From a virus (taxonomy: Duplodnaviria; Caudoviricetes), in the IMG/VR virus record IMGVR_UViG_3300037010_001838: a DNA stretch of 64,000 bases. One strand, 5' to 3'. The notes under the pieces were generated by a model. That model did no database searches, was not told the DNA's origin, and was given only the letters and a program-made list of their open reading frames with translations. How positions within the stretch are numbered: position 1 is the stretch's first letter; each line of letters begins with the position of its first letter. The translations under genes and the position numbers were made by a program. Shown here one piece after another: positions 3,365 to 62,736 of the stretch.

Positions 3365-3438
3365 GCTCAATTGGCTTAATGGTAAAGCAGGTGCTTCTAA
3401 AACACTTGACCGTCGGTTCGATTCCGACATTGGGCACC
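3365..3438 (+). tRNA. amber suppressor tRNA (CUA anticodon)
   Basis: acceptor GCTCAAT/ATTGGGC, D stem GCTT/AAGC, loop TT-CTA-AA (3395-3401) with a C31-A39 mismatch, T arm GTCGG-TTCGATT-CCGAC. Confidence 0.75.
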
Positions 3439-4139: not shown

Positions 4140-5190
4140 AGTATTAAGAAAGTCACTCTTTTAATTAGTTCTGTGAATTCAGAACGTTTCATCAGAAACA
4201 ATTTAAAAGATAAAGAATTACGCGCTTGTGCAAAGTAACCAACAGCGATGTTGTGAAAGCGGTAGGTCCTACAACTACCGCGCCCTGTAAGGGGTACAAA
4301 CAAGCAAGCCTGACCTACTCCGAAAGGAGCTGATTATCGCCAACGGTAGTCATATGAGGGAAGTTAGGGGTGTGGAAAGAACGAATGTTTACAAGCCTGC
4401 TCTGCAGGGAACTTGGGCATTTGGAGAGTAACGGGTTGTGCCGACCTCACGCCTACACAAACTAGCCATCTCAAAAGGTAAAGGGTAGTACAGTGGTCCG
4501 AACCCGCAAGTAAGGGCTGTTGTGCAAGTTGAGGGGGTTTTGGTACCTGTAATAGGGTGTCACGATTCCTGAAAACTGGTTGAGTAGTCGGCAGATGAAA
4601 AACATGAGGAGTGTGGTATTTTTATACTCAAAAGGTATGAAATCCACTGGAAACGCACTTCTTGGTAGGTTTAACAATGTTAGGGTTAACAGCCCATATA
4701 AATTTGGATTATATTACATAAAACGCAAAGACGTTTCCAGTGTAAAGTGAAAATGGCTTAATCCTTCAGCCGCAAGGTAATGAAGGCGTCCAAAACTCGC
4801 AAGGTCGAGGATGTTGAAAGAAAGTCGCACGCAGAGAGTTAGCGCTCTTGTACAGCTCGCAAGGTTGGCGGTAGACAGATAATCGAGTAGCTTTACATGT
4901 TGGTGGAAAAGCAACCACTTAAAAAATGCAGTCATGTTGATAGACATAGTTGTGCGAAAGCTGATTATGTGGATAAGAGAAGAACTCTAGCTGTAGCAGG
5001 TGATGAGATAATGTCTCGAAGGTATCAATAGTATAGGTTTAATCTCAACCTTATACAAAGTAAATGCCTCGATTGGGGTGTCTGCTTTAAACAATCTGTG
5101 TAGAACCTCCCTTGTAAAAGGGGTTAGAGAGTTGGTAATGTAGATTGTTTAAAGCAGACTTATGAACTGCCACTTTGAAAAAAGAGAGTA
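4140..5190 (+). ncRNA. large ornate ncRNA candidate (GOLLD/ROOL-like class)
   Basis: ~1 kb without a credible ORF, raised GC, many GNRA-capped hairpins, perfect 18-bp (5080-5097/5142-5159) and 11-bp (4645-4655/4732-4742) helices, next to tRNAs; boundaries approximate. Confidence 0.65.
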
Positions 5191-6129: not shown

Positions 6130-7632
6130 GTGAGCAAAGAATTTGTGGATGCCCTTTCTATTACAACCAATGTAGCGCACACGGAAAATGGTGCTGTTGC
6201 ATTTGATACAACCAAATCAGCTATGTTGGATTTGTTTGCACAAGGGGGTGCACTCCGCAATCGTGCTGATGATGAAATTCTTCGTTTGTTTTCAAAAGCT
6301 TATGCAGAAAATGCATTGTTTGCCACTCGTGCTATGTTCTATTTCAGGGACGCTCGTGGTGGTCAAGGTGAACGCGATACATTTAGAAAGCAATTAAAGT
6401 GGTTGATTAACGTTAACCCTGACGCTGTCCGTAAAAACATTAAACTTATTCCATACTTTGGACGTTGGGATGATTTGTATGTGTTATTTGATACAGAACT
6501 TGAAACAGATGCAATTACACTAATCTTTACACAGATTGCCGAAGACACGGCATCTGAACATCCCTCGTTGCTTGCAAAATGGTTGAAAAGTGAAAACGCT
6601 TCTTCAAAAGAAACGAAACGACTTGCAACAAAAACTCGTATAGGTCTTAAATTAAGTTCCAAAGCATATCGCTTGATGTTGAGCACTCTTCGTAAGAAAA
6701 TTAACATCGTTGAACGGTTGGTGTCTGCCAATCAGTGGGATAGTATTGAATACAGTGCCGTTCCTTCTCAAGCTAACTTGTTATATGGGAAAGCTTTCTT
6801 CACGCATGACGCTGAACGCCGTAAGAAATTCTTGGATTCTTTAAAGACTGGCGAAAAGAAAATCAATGCGAGTGTTCTTTTTCCATATGAAATCGTCCAT
6901 AAAGCACTTACGGTGGGCAGGAACACACCACAACACGAACGCCAACTCATAGATGCGTTGTGGGACGCTCTTCCAAACTATATTGGAGATAAACAAGAAA
7001 ATGCTCTTGCTGTAGTTGATGTGTCTGGTTCTATGGCTGGTCTTCCATTGGAAGTTGCTATTTCGGTTGGAATGTATTTGGCTGAACGTAACACTTGTGA
7101 AGCTTATCATAACAAGTTCATTACTTTTAGCTCTACACCTCAACTACTTAAAATTCAGGGAGCTGACCTTGTTGAAAAAATAGCTAATATGAATAGTTCT
7201 GCATGGGAAATGAATACAGATATTCAAGCTGTGTTCCGTTTGATTCTTACTGTTGCCAAACAAAACAAGTTAGCACAATCTGAATTACCACAGAAGTTGT
7301 ATATCATTTCTGATATGGAATTTGATGCCGCTATAAGCAACGCTAGATATTCTTATAAGAATCAATGTCGGGGTGTGGTTGACGAAAAATTTTTCCAAAC
7401 AATTTCTAAAGAATTTAGTGAGTGTGGATATACAATGCCCAATTTGGTGTTTTGGAATGTTGATGCTCGGAACCAACAGTTTCCAATGAGTATGGATGAG
7501 CGTGGTTTTCAAATGGTTAGTGGATGTAGTCCGTCTATCTTTAAGCACACAATAGGTGGAGAATTTATGTCTGCTTATGATTTGATGCTTGATGTTATTA
7601 ACAGTGAACGTTATCAACTCGTTACAATTTAA
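6130..7632 (+). CDS. TROVE/Ro60-related vWA protein (DUF2828-like)
   Basis: TENGA, RDARGGQGER and vWA MIDAS VVDVSGSM motifs; ISDMEFD; FWNV. Confidence 0.85.
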   Translation: MSKEFVDALSITTNVAHTENGAVAFDTTKSAMLDLFAQGGALRNRADDEILRLFSKAYAENALFATRAMFYFRDARGGQGERDTFRKQLKWLINVNPDAVRKNIKLIPYFGRWDDLYVLFDTELETDAITLIFTQIAEDTASEHPSLLAKWLKSENASSKETKRLATKTRIGLKLSSKAYRLMLSTLRKKINIVERLVSANQWDSIEYSAVPSQANLLYGKAFFTHDAERRKKFLDSLKTGEKKINASVLFPYEIVHKALTVGRNTPQHERQLIDALWDALPNYIGDKQENALAVVDVSGSMAGLPLEVAISVGMYLAERNTCEAYHNKFITFSSTPQLLKIQGADLVEKIANMNSSAWEMNTDIQAVFRLILTVAKQNKLAQSELPQKLYIISDMEFDAAISNARYSYKNQCRGVVDEKFFQTISKEFSECGYTMPNLVFWNVDARNQQFPMSMDERGFQMVSGCSPSIFKHTIGGEFMSAYDLMLDVINSERYQLVTI

Positions 7633-18042: not shown

Positions 18043-18098
18043 TGTTGACTTTTATAAATAAGTCATATATACTTGTATCAACAGTTGAGCAAAGTGCT
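18043..18098 (+). promoter_or_regulatory. tRNA-cluster promoter A with TGACTT-N8-AAGTCA palindrome
   Basis: TTGACT(18045)-17 nt-TATACT(18068); 56-nt block identical to 31399-31454. Confidence 0.9.
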
Positions 18099-18127
18099 CA
18101 ATAAATTTAATTAATGGAGATTTGCAA

Positions 18128-18226
18128 ATGATTTTTACGACTTTCTTTACAGCGTTTACAACCCCTGAGGCATGGCATGCCCCAGAGATGGCTGTGTGCG
18201 CTCTTGAGGAAGGTTGGAAAAACTAA
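18128..18226 (+). CDS. attenuator leader peptide A (MIFTTFFTAFTTPEAWHAPEMAVCALEEGWKN)
   Basis: GGAG RBS, 32 codons rich in Phe/Thr/Ala/Pro/Glu, followed by a terminator. Confidence 0.85.
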   Translation: MIFTTFFTAFTTPEAWHAPEMAVCALEEGWKN

Positions 18227-18244
18227 AAAGTTTCCAGAAATTCT

Positions 18245-18276
18245 AAAAAGGGCGCTCCGAAAAAGCGCCCTTTTTT
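18245..18276 (+). terminator. attenuator terminator A
   Basis: AAAAAGGGCGCT-CCGAAAA-AGCGCCCTTTTTT; 5' arm can instead pair with GCGCTCTT at 18198-18205. Confidence 0.9.
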
Positions 18277-18310
18277 ATTGTTTGTTGATTTTGTAGTAAA
18301 TGTTTTAAAC

Positions 18311-18326
18311 TGTTCATTAACAATTT
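18311..18326 (+). promoter_or_regulatory. boxA-like antitermination element A
   Basis: TGTTCATTAACAATTT versus rrn boxA TGCTCTTTAACA. Confidence 0.7.
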
Positions 18327-18602: not shown

Positions 18603-18605
18603 AAT

Positions 18606-18744
18606 GGGTGATTCGGGTGGCTAAGGCGGGTTCGATTCCCGTATGCTCCACCAAAAGAACTTTTAAATGTTGAAGTTCTTTTAATGGGGGCATGATGGTT
18701 GCTGCCGACGGGCAAGACGAGTTCGATTCTCGTATCGTCCACCA
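18606..18744 (+). other. two truncated tRNA-like units (T arm plus CCA end)
   Basis: 18606-18653 and 18686-18744 have a T arm and TCCACCA end but no anticodon arm. Confidence 0.55.
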
Positions 18745-18793
18745 AAGTTTGTAAACCAAAGTTTGTAATTAGAGTGTGCTAAAACTAAAAAAT

Positions 18794-18880: not shown

Positions 18881-18901
18881 ATTTTCACAAGTAAAACAAC
18901 T

Positions 18902-18971
18902 TTCAGTATAGTGTAATGGTTAGCACGACCCCGTTGGTGGGTTAGAGTGTGGTTCGATTCCCACCTGAATA
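18902..18971 (+). tRNA. degenerate tRNA (Gln UUG-like)
   Basis: D and T arms present; loop CG-TTG-GT and weak acceptor stem. Confidence 0.4.
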
Positions 18972-19042
18972 TGACAACTAGAGAGCAAGCTACTCTTTCA
19001 TTGGTGGTCTGATCAACTAAGATGACAAGTGAAACGATTAAC

Positions 19043-19120
19043 GTAACTGTAGCTCCAATCACGCAGAGCATTTGTCTAAAAAGCAAAGTGTTGCGGGTCC
19101 GAATCCTACTGGTTACACCA
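19043..19120 (+). tRNA. tRNA-Phe-like pseudogene with 6-nt anticodon loop
   Basis: TTTGT-CTAAAA-GCAAA (CTGAAAA lacking G34); CCA. Confidence 0.55.
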
Positions 19121-31398: not shown

Positions 31399-31454
31399 TG
31401 TTGACTTTTATAAATAAGTCATATATACTTGTATCAACAGTTGAGCAAAGTGCT
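31399..31454 (+). promoter_or_regulatory. tRNA-cluster promoter B with palindrome
   Basis: identical to 18043-18098. Confidence 0.9.
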
Positions 31455-31468
31455 TAACTAAATAGTTA

Positions 31469-31564
31469 GGTGTTGAAAGCTAGGACGTCCCGGTACTAAC
31501 AAAACATAGAAATATGTGGGTGCGTAGAAGCGTATATTAAGCAGACGATAAAGTAGTAAACACC
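31469..31564 (+). ncRNA. structured 5'-UTR element upstream of leader B
   Basis: GGTGTT/AACACC closing helix, ACATA-GAAA-TATGT hairpin. Confidence 0.4.
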
Positions 31565-31587
31565 ATTTAATTTAAGGAGCTTTACAA

Positions 31588-31683
31588 ATGTTCGTAACCA
31601 GACAACAACAGAGTATTAGTATCATTCGCCGACGCCAAGTGCGTCGCGACAGTGATATTATTATGTCTGGAGGCTGGGTATAG
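31588..31683 (+). CDS. attenuator leader peptide B (MFVTRQQQSISIIRRRQVRRDSDIIMSGGWV)
   Basis: AAGGAG RBS, 31 codons rich in Gln/Arg/Ile/Ser/Asp/Val. Confidence 0.9.
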   Translation: MFVTRQQQSISIIRRRQVRRDSDIIMSGGWV

Positions 31684-31706
31684 CATAAAGCTAAATTCTT
31701 AAAAAG

Positions 31707-31739
31707 AAAAACCCAGTTTCCAAAAGAGACTGGGTTTTT
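31707..31739 (+). terminator. attenuator terminator B
   Basis: AAAAACCCAGTTTC-CAAAA-GAGACTGGGTTTTT; alternative pairing with GGAGGCTGGGT at 31669-31679. Confidence 0.9.
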
Positions 31740-31750
31740 CGTTTTACAAC

Positions 31751-31766
31751 TGTTCATTAAAAATTT
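31751..31766 (+). promoter_or_regulatory. boxA-like element B
   Basis: TGTTCATTAAAAATTT. Confidence 0.65.
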
Positions 31767-32905: not shown

Positions 32906-32990
32906 ACCACTGTGGCCGATAGGTTAGGCACAGGACCGATAATCCTGGAGGGAAACCTCGAAGTTGGTTCGATTCCAACCGGTGGTACCA
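32906..32990 (+). tRNA. tRNA-Ile(GAU) with long variable arm
   Basis: CAGGA-CCGATAA-TCCTG; V arm GAGG-GAAA-CCTC; CCA. Confidence 0.8.
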
Positions 32991-37638: not shown

Positions 37639-37667
37639 TTGACTTTCATAAATAAGTCATATATACT
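37639..37667 (+). promoter_or_regulatory. tRNA-cluster promoter C with palindrome
   Basis: TTGACTTTCATAAATAAGTCATATATACT, one base different from promoters A and B. Confidence 0.9.
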
Positions 37668-37703
37668 TATAACACTAACTTAACAAACTTAAAGAATTTA
37701 CAA

Positions 37704-37805
37704 ATGTTCGATTCAACAAAACCAATTTTTATCAATAATGTAAACGTTAATAATAAACGTTCACACGCTGAGGCATTGACTGTTGAAATCAAACTAATCA
37801 TCTGA
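37704..37805 (+). CDS. attenuator leader peptide C (MFDSTKPIFINNVNVNNKRSHAEALTVEIKLII)
   Basis: 33 codons with an NNVNVNNK core; weak RBS; same TTTACAAATG start context as leader B. Confidence 0.8.
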   Translation: MFDSTKPIFINNVNVNNKRSHAEALTVEIKLII

Positions 37806-37825
37806 AAGTAAACAAAAGTTAATAG

Positions 37826-37858
37826 GCCTCGGCAGAGAAATCTCCCGAGGCTTTTTTT
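37826..37858 (+). terminator. attenuator terminator C
   Basis: GCCTCGG-CAGAGAAATCTC-CCGAGGC-TTTTTTT; alternative pairing with GCTGAGGC at 37767-37774. Confidence 0.9.
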
Positions 37859-37859
37859 A

Positions 37860-37875
37860 TGTTCTTTAAAAATTT
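37860..37875 (+). promoter_or_regulatory. boxA-like element C
   Basis: TGTTCTTTAAAAATTT. Confidence 0.7.
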
Positions 37876-37878
37876 AAT

Positions 37879-37952
37879 AGTCCCTTAACTCAATGGTAGA
37901 GTGCTGTCGTGACATGGCAGATACAGAAGTTCAATTCTTCTAGGGACTACCA
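37879..37952 (+). tRNA. tRNA-Val(GAC)
   Basis: CTGTC-GTGACAT-GGCAG, CCA. Confidence 0.85.
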
Positions 37953-37965
37953 AAGTTTCACTTGC

Positions 37966-38050
37966 TCCGGTCGGACTGGCTTGGTGAAGGTCTCGCACTG
38001 TTAATGCGAAGGCTCCGAAAGGAGGCGAGGTTCGATTCCTCGGACCGGAG
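37966..38050 (+). tRNA. tRNA-Asn(GUU) with long variable arm and extended acceptor helix
   Basis: TCGCA-CTGTTAA-TGCGA; V arm CTCC-GAAA-GGAG; flanks pair from 37957 to 38059; no CCA. Confidence 0.8.
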
Positions 38051-38065
38051 CAAGTGGAATTTAAT

Positions 38066-38140
38066 GGGGTGTTAGTGTCAGCGGAAGCACAGAAGACTTT
38101 TAATCTTTTAGGCTGGATTCGAATTCCAGGCGCCCTACCA
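38066..38140 (+). tRNA. tRNA-Lys(UUU)
   Basis: loop CT-TTT-AA, CCA. Confidence 0.9.
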
Positions 38141-38149
38141 AAATATAAT

Positions 38150-38223
38150 GCACCGCAAGCATTAAGGTGATGCAATAGGCTCTTACCCTGTAGAACACGG
38201 CTCAATACCGTGGCGGTGTACCA
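38150..38223 (+). tRNA. tRNA-Lys(CUU)
   Basis: ATAGG-CTCTTAC-CCTGT, CCA; atypical T loop. Confidence 0.8.
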
Positions 38224-38228
38224 TATTT

Positions 38229-38312
38229 CCATCCGACACCGAACTGGTACGGTACGAGACTTTTAATCTCGCGTCTTTGACTATGAGGGTTCGAATCCCT
38301 CCGGGTGGACCA
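38229..38312 (+). tRNA. tRNA-Lys(UUU) with variable-arm hairpin
   Basis: CGAGA-CTTTTAA-TCTCG; V region GTC-TTT-GAC; A73, CCA. Confidence 0.8.
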
Positions 38313-38433: not shown

Positions 38434-39072
38434 ATGAAGTTATTTGAAATTATTGGAGGAGAAGCTCTTCGAAAATCTGATAGTGTTAAAGTTAGAAATG
38501 GTTACACAGACACAGATTCATTAAAACGCCTTGGGGTTGGCCTTCAGGCTGTTGTAGTCGATAGAATAAAGAAGCCTGGAGTGGTAACAAAAGTCTTTGG
38601 TTTTAACACAGAAGAAGATGGGTATCTTCAATTCCTGCGGTTTATTCAAAAACACCAAAATAACCCCTTTTTACCTCGAATTTATAAAATTCGTCTGTAT
38701 CGGAAAGAGTTTGATATATACATCAATAGAACAGATTCTGTTTATGATAATACAGGAGTTGTTGACATGGAAAAATTATTACCATTAAATTCTCCTAAAA
38801 TTAAAGATGCTATTTCTCATCAACTTCAGGCACTCGGAATGAATGAACAGTTTGCCGAAAGTCTTGCAACGAGCCAATTGATTAATTATTATCATGATGC
38901 TGTTGTTAACAAAAAAATTGAGCGCAACGCTCAATTTGAAGAAGTTGTTAATTTCTTACGCACGTATGGTGCTATAGCAGATTTAGACTTACATTCAGGA
39001 AACATTATGGCAAGGTTAACTTCTGTTGGTCCCCAGTTAGTTCTAATTGACCCTATTTGGAAACCTGATTAA
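38434..39072 (+). CDS. protein-kinase-like protein with capsid-targeting-like N-terminus
   Basis: LGVGLQAVV, VVTKV, DLHSGNIM, LVLIDP; MKLFEI start after TAAATA. Confidence 0.75.
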   Translation: MKLFEIIGGEALRKSDSVKVRNGYTDTDSLKRLGVGLQAVVVDRIKKPGVVTKVFGFNTEEDGYLQFLRFIQKHQNNPFLPRIYKIRLYRKEFDIYINRTDSVYDNTGVVDMEKLLPLNSPKIKDAISHQLQALGMNEQFAESLATSQLINYYHDAVVNKKIERNAQFEEVVNFLRTYGAIADLDLHSGNIMARLTSVGPQLVLIDPIWKPD

Positions 39073-39122
39073 AAATATCTGTTGACCCTTTAATCGTTTC
39101 TGTATATAATATTCCTTAATAT

Positions 39123-39198
39123 GTCCCGTTAGCTCAGTTGGATAGAGCACTTGTGTGACATGCAATATACGGCAGTTCAATTCTGCCGGGGACTACCA
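39123..39198 (+). tRNA. tRNA-Val(GAC), acceptor stem out of register
   Basis: loop GT-GAC-AT as at 37879; CCA; imperfect acceptor. Confidence 0.55.
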
Positions 39199-39208
39199 AA
39201 GTTTCAAG

Positions 39209-39326
39209 TGTTCCAGTTGAGCCGCGGGGTGTGGCAGCGGACTGATGCAAAAGCCCCTTCTAACGAGGAGGCTTTGATTAATCCGTGACGAAAGTCTAGT
39301 TTGGTTCGACACCAAAAACTGGAGCA
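39209..39326 (+). ncRNA. atypical tRNA-like RNA with 10-bp acceptor and elongated central arm
   Basis: TGTTCCAGTT/AACTGGAGCA, D-like CCGC/GCGG, GAC-GAAA-GTC arm, T arm TTTGG-TTCGACA-CCAAA. Confidence 0.6.
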
Positions 39327-39341
39327 GTTGGAATTTTATAT

Positions 39342-39457
39342 GGAGGTCTAGCCTAGTGGATAGGCACCGGACTTATTCGAGCATCTGCGAAATCGGGTGT
39401 TCCTGTTAATCCGGACCGTAATGGTATAGCGTGAGTTCGAATCTCCGGGCCTCTACC
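39342..39457 (+). tRNA. tRNA-Asn(GUU)-like with 31-nt hairpin insertion in the anticodon loop
   Basis: CCGGA-CT[39374-39404]GTTAA-TCCGG; V arm hairpin; imperfect T stem. Confidence 0.7.
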
Positions 39458-61536: not shown

Positions 61537-62736
61537 CTACCACTTGTCCAAAGAACAAGTGGGGTCACCCAATGGCAACGCAATTCCTGTTTCATTGATA
61601 TTAGAATCAATATCTCTGCAGGCGTAAATTCGGCTAGTTCCCAGCCTATATAATTCAGATAACCCAAATGAACGAATATTAACAGCTGCATTAATGTCTC
61701 TATCGTGTTTAACGCCACATTCACAATCCCACTCTCTATCGTTCAGAGTTAGATTGTTGTTAAGCGTTCCGCACGATGAACACATTTTAGAACTAGGGGA
61801 GTATCTATCAATTTCAACTAATATTCCACCGGTTTCAGCTAATTTATGTTGGAGTTTTGTTTTAAATAACCCCCAACTAGCGGAACTGATTGATTTAGCC
61901 AATTTCCTGTTCTGAACCATGCCTTTAATATTCAGGTCTTCCATGCAAACAACTTGATAGTTTTTGGTTATCGAACTAACAAGTTTCCATTGGAAGTCTT
62001 TTCTTTGATTTGCCACATGTCTATGTAGCTTATTTAATTTCTTCTTTGCTTTTGTTCTATTTGAGCTACCTTTCACCTTTTTTGAGAGCGATTTCTGTTT
62101 GTGTTTTAACAGCTTTTCGCTCTTTTGAAGGTGTTTTGGGTTTGAATATTTAACACCTGTGTTAAGAACAGCAAAATCTTTGATTCCGACATCAATGCCA
62201 ATAACTTCTTGTTCTGTAAAGATATTTCTAACTGGAACGTCGGGTAATTCGCAGGTAATATATCCAAACCACTTATCATCGACGCATTTAACTACTATTC
62301 GTTTTGCTTTTCCCTCAAATTCTCGCTGTTTGTTGTATTTAATTCGACCAATTTTAGGTAATTTAATGCTTCTATTGCAAATATTAAAGTGTTGTGGCAC
62401 CGCAAATGTAGCAACTGATGTGTGTTTGCTTTTAAATTTAGGAAATCCCACTGCTTTCTTATTTTTAATTTTTCTGGTGATTGCGTTGTTTAAATTAATC
62501 ACTTGTTCTTGTAGAGATTGGCTGTTTGTCTCACTTAGCCAAGGATATGTTGCCTTCAGCTCAGGCAATAACTTGCTCATTTCAAAACGAAACACAAACT
62601 GCTTGTCAGCCTCATATTTCTTAATATTTAAATCAAGCATTTGGTTCCATAACCAACGAACAGAACCACAGTGTTGTTTGAACAACACAATTTGATCTTC
62701 ATTTGGTAACAATTGAACCTCAAAGGTTTTGATCAT
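61537..62736 (-). CDS. tnpB: TnpB RNA-guided nuclease
   Basis: HTH start, RuvC GIDVG / MEDL / DRDINAAVNI, Zn finger CSSCG..CECG. Confidence 0.95.
   Translation of the reverse strand: MIKTFEVQLLPNEDQIVLFKQHCGSVRWLWNQMLDLNIKKYEADKQFVFRFEMSKLLPELKATYPWLSETNSQSLQEQVINLNNAITRKIKNKKAVGFPKFKSKHTSVATFAVPQHFNICNRSIKLPKIGRIKYNKQREFEGKAKRIVVKCVDDKWFGYITCELPDVPVRNIFTEQEVIGIDVGIKDFAVLNTGVKYSNPKHLQKSEKLLKHKQKSLSKKVKGSSNRTKAKKKLNKLHRHVANQRKDFQWKLVSSITKNYQVVCMEDLNIKGMVQNRKLAKSISSASWGLFKTKLQHKLAETGGILVEIDRYSPSSKMCSSCGTLNNNLTLNDREWDCECGVKHDRDINAAVNIRSFGLSELYRLGTSRIYACRDIDSNINETGIALPLGDPTCSLDKW

What the first reader, a model, noticed from the sequence alone, without database searches (positions are those of the whole stretch)
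37704..37858. Attenuator C: Asn/Val/Lys leader before Val, Asn and three Lys tRNAs
Eight consecutive codons (AAT AAT GTA AAC GTT AAT AAT AAA) lie just upstream of GCTGAGGC-ATTGACT (37767-37781). That segment can pair with AGTTAAT-AG-GCCTCGGC (37817-37833), which includes the terminator 5' arm. The match outside the core is weaker and the RBS is poor. tRNA-Lys is a known target of PrrC, so triple Lys backup under such a sensor fits a counter-defence role (inference).
Basis: partly seen in the sequence, partly recalled or inferred. Interest (0 to 1): 0.8.

Follow-up and report, generated by a model that had tools for sequence, protein, structure and literature searches.

The report
Leader-peptide switch gating phage tRNA genes
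An uncultured large phage places its Val-Asn-Lys-Lys-Lys tRNA genes behind a tiny translated test gene rich in Asn, Val and Lys codons and a switchable transcription stop, so it probably makes these tRNAs only when those codons are read slowly, a trp-operon-style control I could not find published for tRNA genes.

Summary
A sigma-70-type promoter (37639-37667) is followed by a 33-codon ORF (37704-37805) with the run NNVNVNNK, then a strong intrinsic terminator (37824-37858), a boxA-like motif, and tRNAs Val, Asn, Lys, Lys, Lys.

The proposed antiterminator (37767-37781 with 37817-33) is a 15-bp duplex of -20.2 kcal/mol. Shuffled leaders give -7.2 +/- 1.9. It becomes occluded exactly one codon after the run ends.

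Unit C is one of four paralogous units: A and B in this window, D in a near-identical IMG/VR contig. Each leader is spelled in the amino acids of its own tRNA array, and together they cover all 20. Other phage contigs carry orthologous or re-partitioned units, and their leader codons follow the tRNAs that moved. A divergent environmental variant of unit C keeps the frame, the stop position and a Val/Lys/Asn run.

My reading is a ribosome-mediated attenuator that senses decoding speed and therefore charged-tRNA supply (confidence 0.8). The PrrC counter-defence idea is compatible but untested. There are no expression data and the host is unknown.

This scan has already reported the same kind of system on other phage DNA. 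I found no publication.

The parts
37639..37667 (+). Sigma-70-type promoter TTGACT-17-TATACT. It is part of a 30-nt box shared with units A (18045) and B (31401). It contains the imperfectly conserved palindrome TGACTT-N8-AAGTCA.
   Evidence: 3 matches in the window, 0 expected in shuffles.
37691..37696 (+). Weak Shine-Dalgarno AAAGAA, 7 nt before the ATG. It is positionally homologous to AAAGGA or GGAG in the paralogous units.
   Evidence: A natural variant in run X3 has A37695G, giving AAAGGA.
37704..37805 (+). Leader ORF of 33 codons with a TGA stop.
   Evidence: The frame and stop position are kept in a divergent variant despite 7 substitutions and a 3-nt insertion.
37734..37757 (+). Sensor run NNVNVNNK (codons 11-18).
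   Evidence: Run P = 5e-5. The variant reads VVKNNVVSNVNNK.
37739..37765 (+). Local hairpin built on the AACGTT...AACGTT repeat inside the run. It is a possible pause or synchronising hairpin (inference).
   Evidence: Present in all folds.
37767..37781 (+). Antiterminator 5' strand (region 2), inside codons 22-26.
   Evidence: T37769C in the relative turns a G-U pair into G-C.
37817..37833 (+). Antiterminator 3' strand (region 3). It overlaps the terminator 5' arm.
37824..37858 (+). Intrinsic terminator: a 9-bp stem, an inner 3-bp stem with a GAAA loop, and a T7 tract.
   Evidence: -18.5 kcal/mol.
37860..37875 (+). boxA-like motif TGTTCTTTAAAAATTT. It matches 13 of 16 positions of E. coli rrn boxA plus spacer, TGCTCTTTAACAATTT.
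   Evidence: Reference sequence from PMC2724277 Table 1. The motif is present after the terminator in all units.
37879..38312 (+). Regulated tRNA array: Val(GAC), Asn(GTT), Lys(TTT), Lys(CTT), Lys(TTT).
   Evidence: Three of the five also reach the Rfam tRNA gathering score.
18045..18326 (+). Paralogous unit A. The leader (18128-18226) is rich in F, T, A, P, E, W, H and M. It precedes tRNAs Pro Pro Ala Glu Phe Thr His Thr Trp Met Thr Ala.
31401..31766 (+). Paralogous unit B. The leader (31588-31683) is rich in R, Q, S, I, V and D. It precedes tRNAs Gln Gln Asp Gln Arg Val Ile Asp Arg Ser Arg Arg.

Best explanation
Unit C is a ribosome-mediated (leader-peptide) transcription attenuator that gates a phage tRNA array.

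Transcription starts at the sigma-70-type promoter. A ribosome then translates the 33-codon leader.

- Fast decoding. If Asn, Val and Lys codons 11-18 are read quickly, the ribosome moves onto region 2 (37767-81) and on to the stop codon while RNA polymerase makes regions 3 and 4. The terminator hairpin forms and transcription stops at the T-tract.
- Slow decoding. If charged tRNA-Asn, -Val or -Lys is scarce, the ribosome lags on the run and region 2 stays free. Region 2 pairs with region 3, which is the terminator 5' arm. The terminator cannot form, and polymerase runs on over a boxA-like site into the Val-Asn-Lys-Lys-Lys genes.

Because the products are the sensed molecules, the loop is self-limiting.

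What the sequence shows:
- the anatomy of the unit;
- the significance of the pairing and of the codon match;
- the paralogues and orthologues;
- the occlusion geometry.

What is inferred:
- that the leader is translated;
- that transcription and translation are coupled in the unknown host;
- that termination is actually regulated;
- that the boxA-like site recruits Nus factors.

For unit C specifically, the predicted default without translation is read-through, because the 1:2 pairing is weak.
For: 1. Architecture. The promoter is at 37639-67. There is no other promoter-like site on the + strand before 38339. The terminator ends 20 nt before the first tRNA.

2. Antiterminator. The duplex is -20.2 kcal/mol against -7.2 +/- 1.9 in shuffles, 0 of 1000 reaching it. 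It is the MFE of the nascent RNA once region 3 exists: -27.5, against -17.4 before region 3.

3. Occlusion scan. The terminator 5' arm is sequestered while the A site is at codons 1-18 and freed from codon 19 to 21 onward. The switch therefore falls right after the run. The same geometry holds in all 12 units tested.

4. Codon match. For unit C the run of 8 has P = 5e-5. The other units match in their sensor zones as follows: A 18/19 (P = 6e-7), B 19/24 (P = 4e-7), D 12/16 (P = 7e-4). In the window lineage (A, B, C in the window and D in the near-identical contig), each leader matches its own array better than the other arrays.

5. Out-of-sample tests.
- Unit D was found only after the hypothesis was formed. 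Its leader run GLGYCLSLGSLS precedes Tyr, Cys, Leu, Gly, Ser, Lys, Leu, Ser, Leu tRNAs.
- In the 257-kb contig, Lys tRNAs sit in the D-like array and its leader has three K. Asn and Met tRNAs sit in the B-like array and its leader has N and M.

6. Covariation. Terminator stems differ between units and orthologues, and the antiterminator strand tracks them. In unit B the strand is CUGGG in the window and CCGGG in the 56-kb contig.

7. Variants of unit C.
- Both substitutions in the near-identical contig are synonymous. One upgrades a G-U pair to G-C.
- A divergent co-occurring variant keeps the ORF through an in-frame 3-nt insertion.
- That variant keeps the stop position, changing TGA to TAA.
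- It reads VVKNNVVSNVNNK.
- Its run codons pair with region 2, a classical 1:2 pairing.

8. No Rfam family such as T-box matches the leader.
Against: - There are no RNA or ribosome data, and the host is unknown.
- The SD of unit C is weak (AAAGAA).
- The window's version has no strong anti-antiterminator. An untranslated leader should therefore read through, and regulation depends wholly on efficient leader translation.
- Only 9 of the 17 codons ahead of the switch are cognate, because the first ten residues are not.
- The run contains one Lys codon, although three Lys tRNAs follow.
- GTA is not read by Val(GAC) under strict wobble.
- At equilibrium the terminator conformation is about 9 kcal/mol more stable (-38.7 against -29.4), so the switch must be kinetic.
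- Only near relatives and one partial variant of unit C were recovered. C-specific covariation rests on two one-sided changes.
- A phage-specific promoter between terminator and tRNAs cannot be excluded by consensus scans.
- Predicted attenuators can fail experimentally. Mutating the regulatory codons of S. coelicolor ilvB had no effect (PMC1262725).
Confidence: 0.8

Rival explanations
1. This is an ordinary small phage gene with its own terminator. The tRNAs are made by unregulated leak-through or from another promoter, and the Asn/Val/Lys run is a by-product of an AT-rich genome.
For: The genome is 36-37% GC, so AAT and AAA codons are common. The SD is weak. The first ten codons do not match the array.
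Against: The run has P = 5e-5 under the phage's own codon usage. Three paralogous units, and further units in other phage contigs, show the same array-specific match. The antiterminator is far beyond chance. Among orthologous leaders of units A, B and D, composition and stop position are conserved more than residue order.
Confidence: 0.05
2. The terminator/antiterminator switch is real but is set by another input. Candidates are a phage or host RNA-binding protein, direct binding of uncharged tRNA (T-box-like), control of leader translation initiation, or a repressor at the promoter palindrome. Decoding speed of the run would not be the signal.
For: The promoter carries TGACTT-N8-AAGTCA. Units A and B share a conserved 5' hairpin right after the predicted start. 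Without translation the antiterminator is the default for unit C, so anything that blocks initiation would also turn the array on.
Against: No T-box or other Rfam leader family matches. The palindrome is broken in two of the three promoters of the 56-kb contig. Nothing but translation explains why each leader is spelled in its own array's amino acids, or why the run ends exactly where occlusion of region 2 begins.
Confidence: 0.1
3. The conserved motif after each terminator is a phage-specific promoter, for a phage RNA polymerase or sigma factor, and it drives the arrays. The leader-terminator cassette would be a separate early transcript.
For: The motif is conserved in every unit, 19-28 nt before the first tRNA in the window's three units. 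Phage-specific promoters are invisible to a sigma-70 scan.
Against: The motif matches rrn boxA plus spacer at 13-14 of 16 positions in the window's three units. In one orthologue it matches the nutL boxA-spacer almost exactly. This reading leaves the codon match and the antiterminator unexplained.
Confidence: 0.05

Closest known systems
Multivalent leader-peptide attenuators of enterobacterial amino-acid operons (ilvGMEDA Ile/Leu/Val, thr Thr/Ile; also trpL, hisL, pheL, leuL)
   Same: Both have a promoter-proximal short ORF with a run of regulatory codons, an intrinsic terminator, an overlapping antiterminator, and a ribosome position that selects the fold. Several amino acids are sensed by one leader. 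This is established knowledge; a general description is in PMC1183508.
   Different: The regulated genes here are tRNAs, not biosynthetic enzymes, so the sensed molecule is the product itself. The element is in a phage and occurs as a four-unit regulon covering all 20 amino acids. In the window's unit C the 1:2 anti-antiterminator is weak, so the default is predicted to be ON.
Leader-peptide attenuators of aminoacyl-tRNA synthetase genes (pheST in gamma-proteobacteria; predicted for trpS and leuS in Streptomyces)
   Same: A translation-supply gene is controlled by the decoding speed of its cognate codons (PMC1262725).
   Different: Those control a protein gene for one amino acid. This one controls untranslated tRNA arrays for several.
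T-box riboswitches
   Same: Both are a terminator/antiterminator decision that reports tRNA charging and controls translation-supply genes.
   Different: A T-box binds uncharged tRNA directly and needs no ORF. No T-box match was found here, and the leader has the marks of translation.
rrn / lambda nut boxA processive antitermination
   Same: The motif after the terminator resembles rrn boxA plus spacer and nutL boxA. It stands at the head of a long untranslated transcript.
   Different: It lies downstream of the attenuator terminator, so it cannot be what decides that terminator. Its function here is inferred only.
Phage tRNAs as counter-defence against tRNA-cleaving immunity (T5 tRNA-Lys versus PARIS; anticodon-loop variants versus PrrC-type nucleases)
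   Same: The array supplies three Lys tRNAs, and tRNA-Lys is a known target of such systems (PMC11464382, PMC10264068).
   Different: Those reports describe the tRNAs, not a sensor that switches them on. No nuclease, host or resistant anticodon-loop feature was identified here.

Membership tests
Ribosome-mediated leader-peptide transcription attenuator | Short ORF with a ribosome-binding site close behind a promoter and ahead of the regulated genes. | tested here: met
   The promoter is at 37639-67 and the 33-codon ORF at 37704-37805. The SD is weak (AAAGAA) but positionally homologous to AAAGGA or GGAG in the paralogues.
Ribosome-mediated leader-peptide transcription attenuator | A run of regulatory codons cognate to what the operon supplies. 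| tested here: met
   NNVNVNNK precedes Val, Asn, Lys, Lys, Lys tRNAs (P = 5e-5). Units A, B and D match their own arrays.
Ribosome-mediated leader-peptide transcription attenuator | An intrinsic terminator between the leader and the regulated genes. | tested here: met
   The hairpin plus T7 tract at 37824-37858 folds at -18.5 kcal/mol.
Ribosome-mediated leader-peptide transcription attenuator | An antiterminator helix mutually exclusive with the terminator. | tested here: met
   The helix 37767-81 with 37817-33 is 15 bp at -20.2 kcal/mol, and 0 of 1000 shuffles reach it. It is the MFE of the nascent RNA.
Ribosome-mediated leader-peptide transcription attenuator | Geometry: a ribosome stalled on the run leaves the antiterminator free, and a ribosome further on occludes it. 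| tested here: met
   The occlusion scan switches at codon 19, right after the run. All 12 units behave the same way. The footprint assumed was the A-site first base plus 12 nt.
Ribosome-mediated leader-peptide transcription attenuator | A 1:2 anti-antiterminator or pause hairpin that gives termination when the leader is not translated. | tested here: inconclusive
   It is weak in the window's unit C. It is clear in the divergent variant and in unit A. A local hairpin at 37739-65 could serve as a pause site.
Ribosome-mediated leader-peptide transcription attenuator | Read-through rises when the cognate charged tRNA is limiting. | not testable with these tools
   Only DNA metagenome contigs hold the sequence, and no RNA holder is listed.
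T-box riboswitch | Matches the T-box covariance model (specifier loop, T-box sequence). | tested here: not met
   The Rfam gathering-threshold scan of the whole window found only tRNAs and GOLLD.
rrn-type boxA antitermination site | boxA consensus in the transcript leader. | tested here: met
   TGTTCTTTAAAAATTT at 37860 compares with rrn TGCTCTTTAACAATTT.
rrn-type boxA antitermination site | NusB/NusE binding and termination-resistant elongation. | not testable with these tools
   This is inference from sequence likeness only.
Counter-defence against PrrC-type anticodon nucleases | A host nuclease that targets tRNA-Lys, with phage tRNAs that escape or replace it. | not tested
   The host is unknown, no nuclease was seen, and the run has only one Lys codon.

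The most novel reading that the evidence does not exclude
The four units form a closed-loop regulon for tRNA supply. Each array is switched on by slow decoding of exactly the codons it serves, and switched off by its own products. The phage would therefore detect and repair any shortfall in the host tRNA pool on demand. Shortfalls could come from codon-usage mismatch, host shut-off, or cleavage by anticodon nucleases such as PrrC, RloC or PARIS. Leader codon sets would co-evolve with array content as tRNA genes move between arrays.
Probability: 0.5. Interest if true: 0.9.

Novelty: new variant of a known kind. Interest (0 to 1): 0.8.

Why it matters
Why phages carry tRNA genes, and how those genes are expressed, has been debated for decades. 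The main ideas are codon compensation and replacement of tRNAs destroyed during infection or by host defence.

An attenuator whose sensor codons mirror the tRNAs it controls would show that the phage measures decoding speed itself and supplies tRNAs on demand. It would extend leader-peptide attenuation from enzyme and synthetase genes to tRNA genes. It would be an example of a product-sensed feedback loop.

It also makes the function of phage tRNA arrays directly testable. The promoter, terminator and boxA-like parts look E. coli-compatible, so reporter tests need not wait for the unknown host. The leaders could serve as compact, programmable sensors of tRNA availability.

Tried and rejected
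- The whole genome of the window is not held.
- BLAST of unit C plus its array, and of unit A, against 50,697 isolate phage records gave only a 61-nt tRNA match or nothing. The largest ORF has no close isolate relative.
- A protein-based search with the ORF downstream of the array (38434-39072) gave relatives at 25-40% identity. None had a syntenic tRNA array on the same strand.
- The promoter pattern in metagenome contigs gave 0 hits.
- The 30-nt tag of the divergent unit C variant gave 0 hits in viral contigs and in metagenome contigs. That variant is therefore known only from the read laying tables and is partial. Two of its ten differences are not listed.
- No RNA holder is listed among the sequencing runs. 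The contigs laid say nothing about expression.
- My first occlusion script counted the inner mini-stem of the terminator and was replaced.
- A forced-terminator fold used pair indices off by one and is ignored. The unconstrained MFE (-38.7) is used for the terminator state.
- Literature searches for leader-peptide or attenuator control of phage or viral tRNA genes found nothing relevant.
- A T-box or other known RNA family was rejected.
- A functional peptide was rejected because orthologous leaders conserve composition rather than residue order.

Full report
**Observation**

- A sigma-70-type promoter, TTGACT-17-TATACT, lies at 37639-37667.
- The only sizeable + strand ORF after it runs 37704-37805 (33 codons).
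- Codons 11-18 are AAT AAT GTA AAC GTT AAT AAT AAA.
- A strong intrinsic terminator follows at 37824-37858. It has a 9-bp stem, an inner 3-bp stem capped by GAAA, and a T7 tract. It folds at -18.5 kcal/mol.
- Twenty bases later the tRNA genes begin: Val(GAC), Asn(GTT), Lys(TTT), Lys(CTT), Lys(TTT).
- No other promoter-like site lies on the + strand before 38339.
- Rfam finds no known leader family here.

**The switch**

Segment 37767-81 pairs with 37817-33 over 8 + 7 bp with a 2-nt bulge, at -20.2 kcal/mol.
- One thousand dinucleotide shuffles of the leader give -7.2 +/- 1.9, and none reaches the observed value.
- The 3' strand contains the terminator's 5' arm, so the two helices exclude each other.
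- The nascent RNA folds at -17.4 kcal/mol before region 3 exists. It folds at -27.5, with the antiterminator as MFE, once region 3 is made.
- The complete leader prefers the terminator: -38.7 against -29.4 with the antiterminator forced.
- The choice must therefore be kinetic, as in classical attenuators.

I also modelled a ribosome with its A site at each codon and folded only the RNA ahead of it.
- The terminator 5' arm stays sequestered for codons 1-18.
- It is released from codon 19-21 onward, which is immediately after the Asn/Val/Lys run.
- A ribosome at the stop codon fills the 35-nt loop between regions 2 and 3. Inference: the antiterminator cannot close around it.

**Unit C is not alone**

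The 30-nt promoter box occurs three times in the window, at 18045, 31401 and 37639, with none expected by chance. Each copy is followed by the same series of parts: an SD, a mini-ORF, a terminator, a boxA-like motif and a tRNA array.
- Leader A's codons 3-22 use only F, T, A, P, E, W, H and M. They precede tRNAs Pro, Pro, Ala, Glu, Phe, Thr, His, Thr, Trp, Met, Thr, Ala.
- Leader B's codons 5-25 use only R, Q, S, I, V and D. They precede Gln, Gln, Asp, Gln, Arg, Val, Ile, Asp, Arg(ACG), Ser(GCT), Arg, Arg.
- Under the phage's own codon usage the sensor-zone matches have P = 6e-7 for A and 4e-7 for B. The 8-codon run of C has P = 5e-5.
- In a cross-table of the window lineage's four units (A, B, C here, D in the near-identical contig), each leader fits its own array best.

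**Out-of-sample tests**

The near-identical contig IMGVR_UViG_3300035181_001013 has the three units plus a fourth, unit D. Unit D lies about 5.7 kb before the window's start.
- Leader D runs GLGYCLSLGSLS, then I(ATA) L D K(AAG).
- It precedes Tyr, Cys, Leu, Gly, Ser, Lys(CTT), Leu, Ser, Leu and Ile(TAT) tRNAs.
- Together the four units cover all 20 amino acids.

A more distant 56-kb contig (3300020048_000168) has orthologues of A, B and D.
- The residue order is scrambled but the composition is conserved.
- The terminator stems have changed, and the antiterminator strands have changed with them.

Two further contigs (3300024983_000001, 257 kb, and 3300024978_000004) partition the tRNAs differently, and the leaders follow.
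- Where both Lys tRNAs sit in the D-like array, the leader has three Lys codons.
- Where Asn and Met tRNAs sit in the B-like array, the leader has Asn and Met codons.
- The window's leader B has no Asn codon.

**Variants of unit C itself**

Four microbial-mat and sediment DNA runs hold the stretch.
- The near-identical contig's form differs by two synonymous changes. One of them, T37769C, turns a G-U pair of the antiterminator into G-C.
- Another variant has A37695G, which converts the weak SD AAAGAA into AAAGGA.
- A divergent co-occurring variant is known only in part. It replaces the upstream half of the run region, yet reads VVKNNVVSNVNNK.
- That variant carries seven substitutions and an in-frame 3-nt insertion in the last codons. 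It keeps the stop at the same place, with TGA changed to TAA.
- It leaves region 2 intact and changes region 3 only from G-C to G-U.
- In it the run codons pair with region 2, which is a classical 1:2 anti-antiterminator.

**Mechanism proposed**

This is a leader-peptide attenuator that reads out how fast Asn, Val and Lys codons are decoded. It releases RNA polymerase into the Val-Asn-Lys-Lys-Lys array when they are decoded slowly.

The motif after the terminator matches E. coli rrn boxA plus spacer at 13 of 16 positions. It probably makes the escaped polymerase processive over the untranslated array. That step is inference.

Because the array's products relieve the stall, the loop should be self-limiting.

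For the window's unit C the 1:2 pairing is weak. An untranslated leader should therefore read through, whereas unit A should terminate. This contrast is a testable prediction.

**Limits**

- There are no RNA data, and the host is unknown.
- The SD is weak, and the first ten codons are non-cognate.
- The run has one Lys codon only.
- GTA is not read by Val(GAC) under strict wobble.
- Covariation specific to unit C is thin.
- Phage-specific promoters cannot be excluded.
- A predicted attenuator has failed mutational tests before (PMC1262725).

The PrrC idea is compatible with known phage tRNA counter-defence (PMC11464382, PMC10264068), but nothing here tests it. The 20-amino-acid coverage argues for general supply control.

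**Comparison and novelty**

The element works like the multivalent attenuators of ilv and thr operons and the pheST attenuator. It meets all sequence-level criteria of that family. The regulated class (tRNA arrays), the product-sensed feedback and the phage regulon are not described in any paper I could find.

This scan's earlier notes report the same kind of system in at least eight other phage genomes. Those are unpublished AI notes. The only one I checked is the 257-kb phage, whose units I re-analysed here. I class the finding as a new variant of a known kind.

Noticed in passing
window 4606-5051 (+): A full-length GOLLD RNA (Rfam RF02032, 198.8 bits, E = 1e-54) lies in the tRNA-rich region.
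   Followed up: no
window 3365-3438 (+) and 31681-31683: There is a tRNA with anticodon CTA, a possible amber suppressor. Leader B ends in TAG, whereas A uses TAA and C uses TGA. Suppression would carry ribosomes through B's terminator. This is speculation only.
   Followed up: no
window 39082-39457 (+): A second Val(GAC)-Asn-Lys set sits behind its own near-consensus promoter (39082-39110). ARAGORN calls the Asn and Lys genes only when 33- and 31-nt inserts in the anticodon loop are allowed.
   Followed up: partly
window 32906-32990, 37966-38051, 38229-38312: The Ile(GAT), Asn(GTT) and one Lys(TTT) gene are 84-86 nt long. That implies long variable arms, which are unusual for these identities.
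   Followed up: no
window 18603-18790 and 18901-19120: Array A contains truncated or odd tRNA-like pieces and low-scoring tRNA calls, namely Gln(TTG) and Phe(AAA).
   Followed up: no
window 18078-18095 and 31434-31451; also L037, L038: A conserved hairpin (UUGAGCAAAGUGCUCAA type) lies directly after the predicted transcription start of units A and B and of both units of the 257-kb contig. It is absent from units C and D. Unit B also has an extra structured 5' UTR of about 120 nt.
   Followed up: no
L023 minus strand, about 745-275: In the 56-kb contig an ORF rich in CxxC and HH motifs is inserted between unit D's terminator and its boxA-like motif. By eye it looks like an HNH-type homing endonuclease. 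I did not check it against Pfam.
   Followed up: no
window 61537-62736 (-): A TnpB/IS605 OrfB-type protein with OrfB_IS605, Cas12f1-like TNB and HTH domains.
   Followed up: no
window 6130-7632 (+): A 500-aa protein with DUF2828 and DUF7788 domains lies next to the GOLLD RNA.
   Followed up: no
window 37640-37659, 18046-18065, 31402-31421: The palindrome TGACTT-N8-AAGTCA overlaps the -35 box of all three promoters. It is broken (AACTCA) in two of the three promoters of the 56-kb relative, so an operator role is doubtful.
   Followed up: partly
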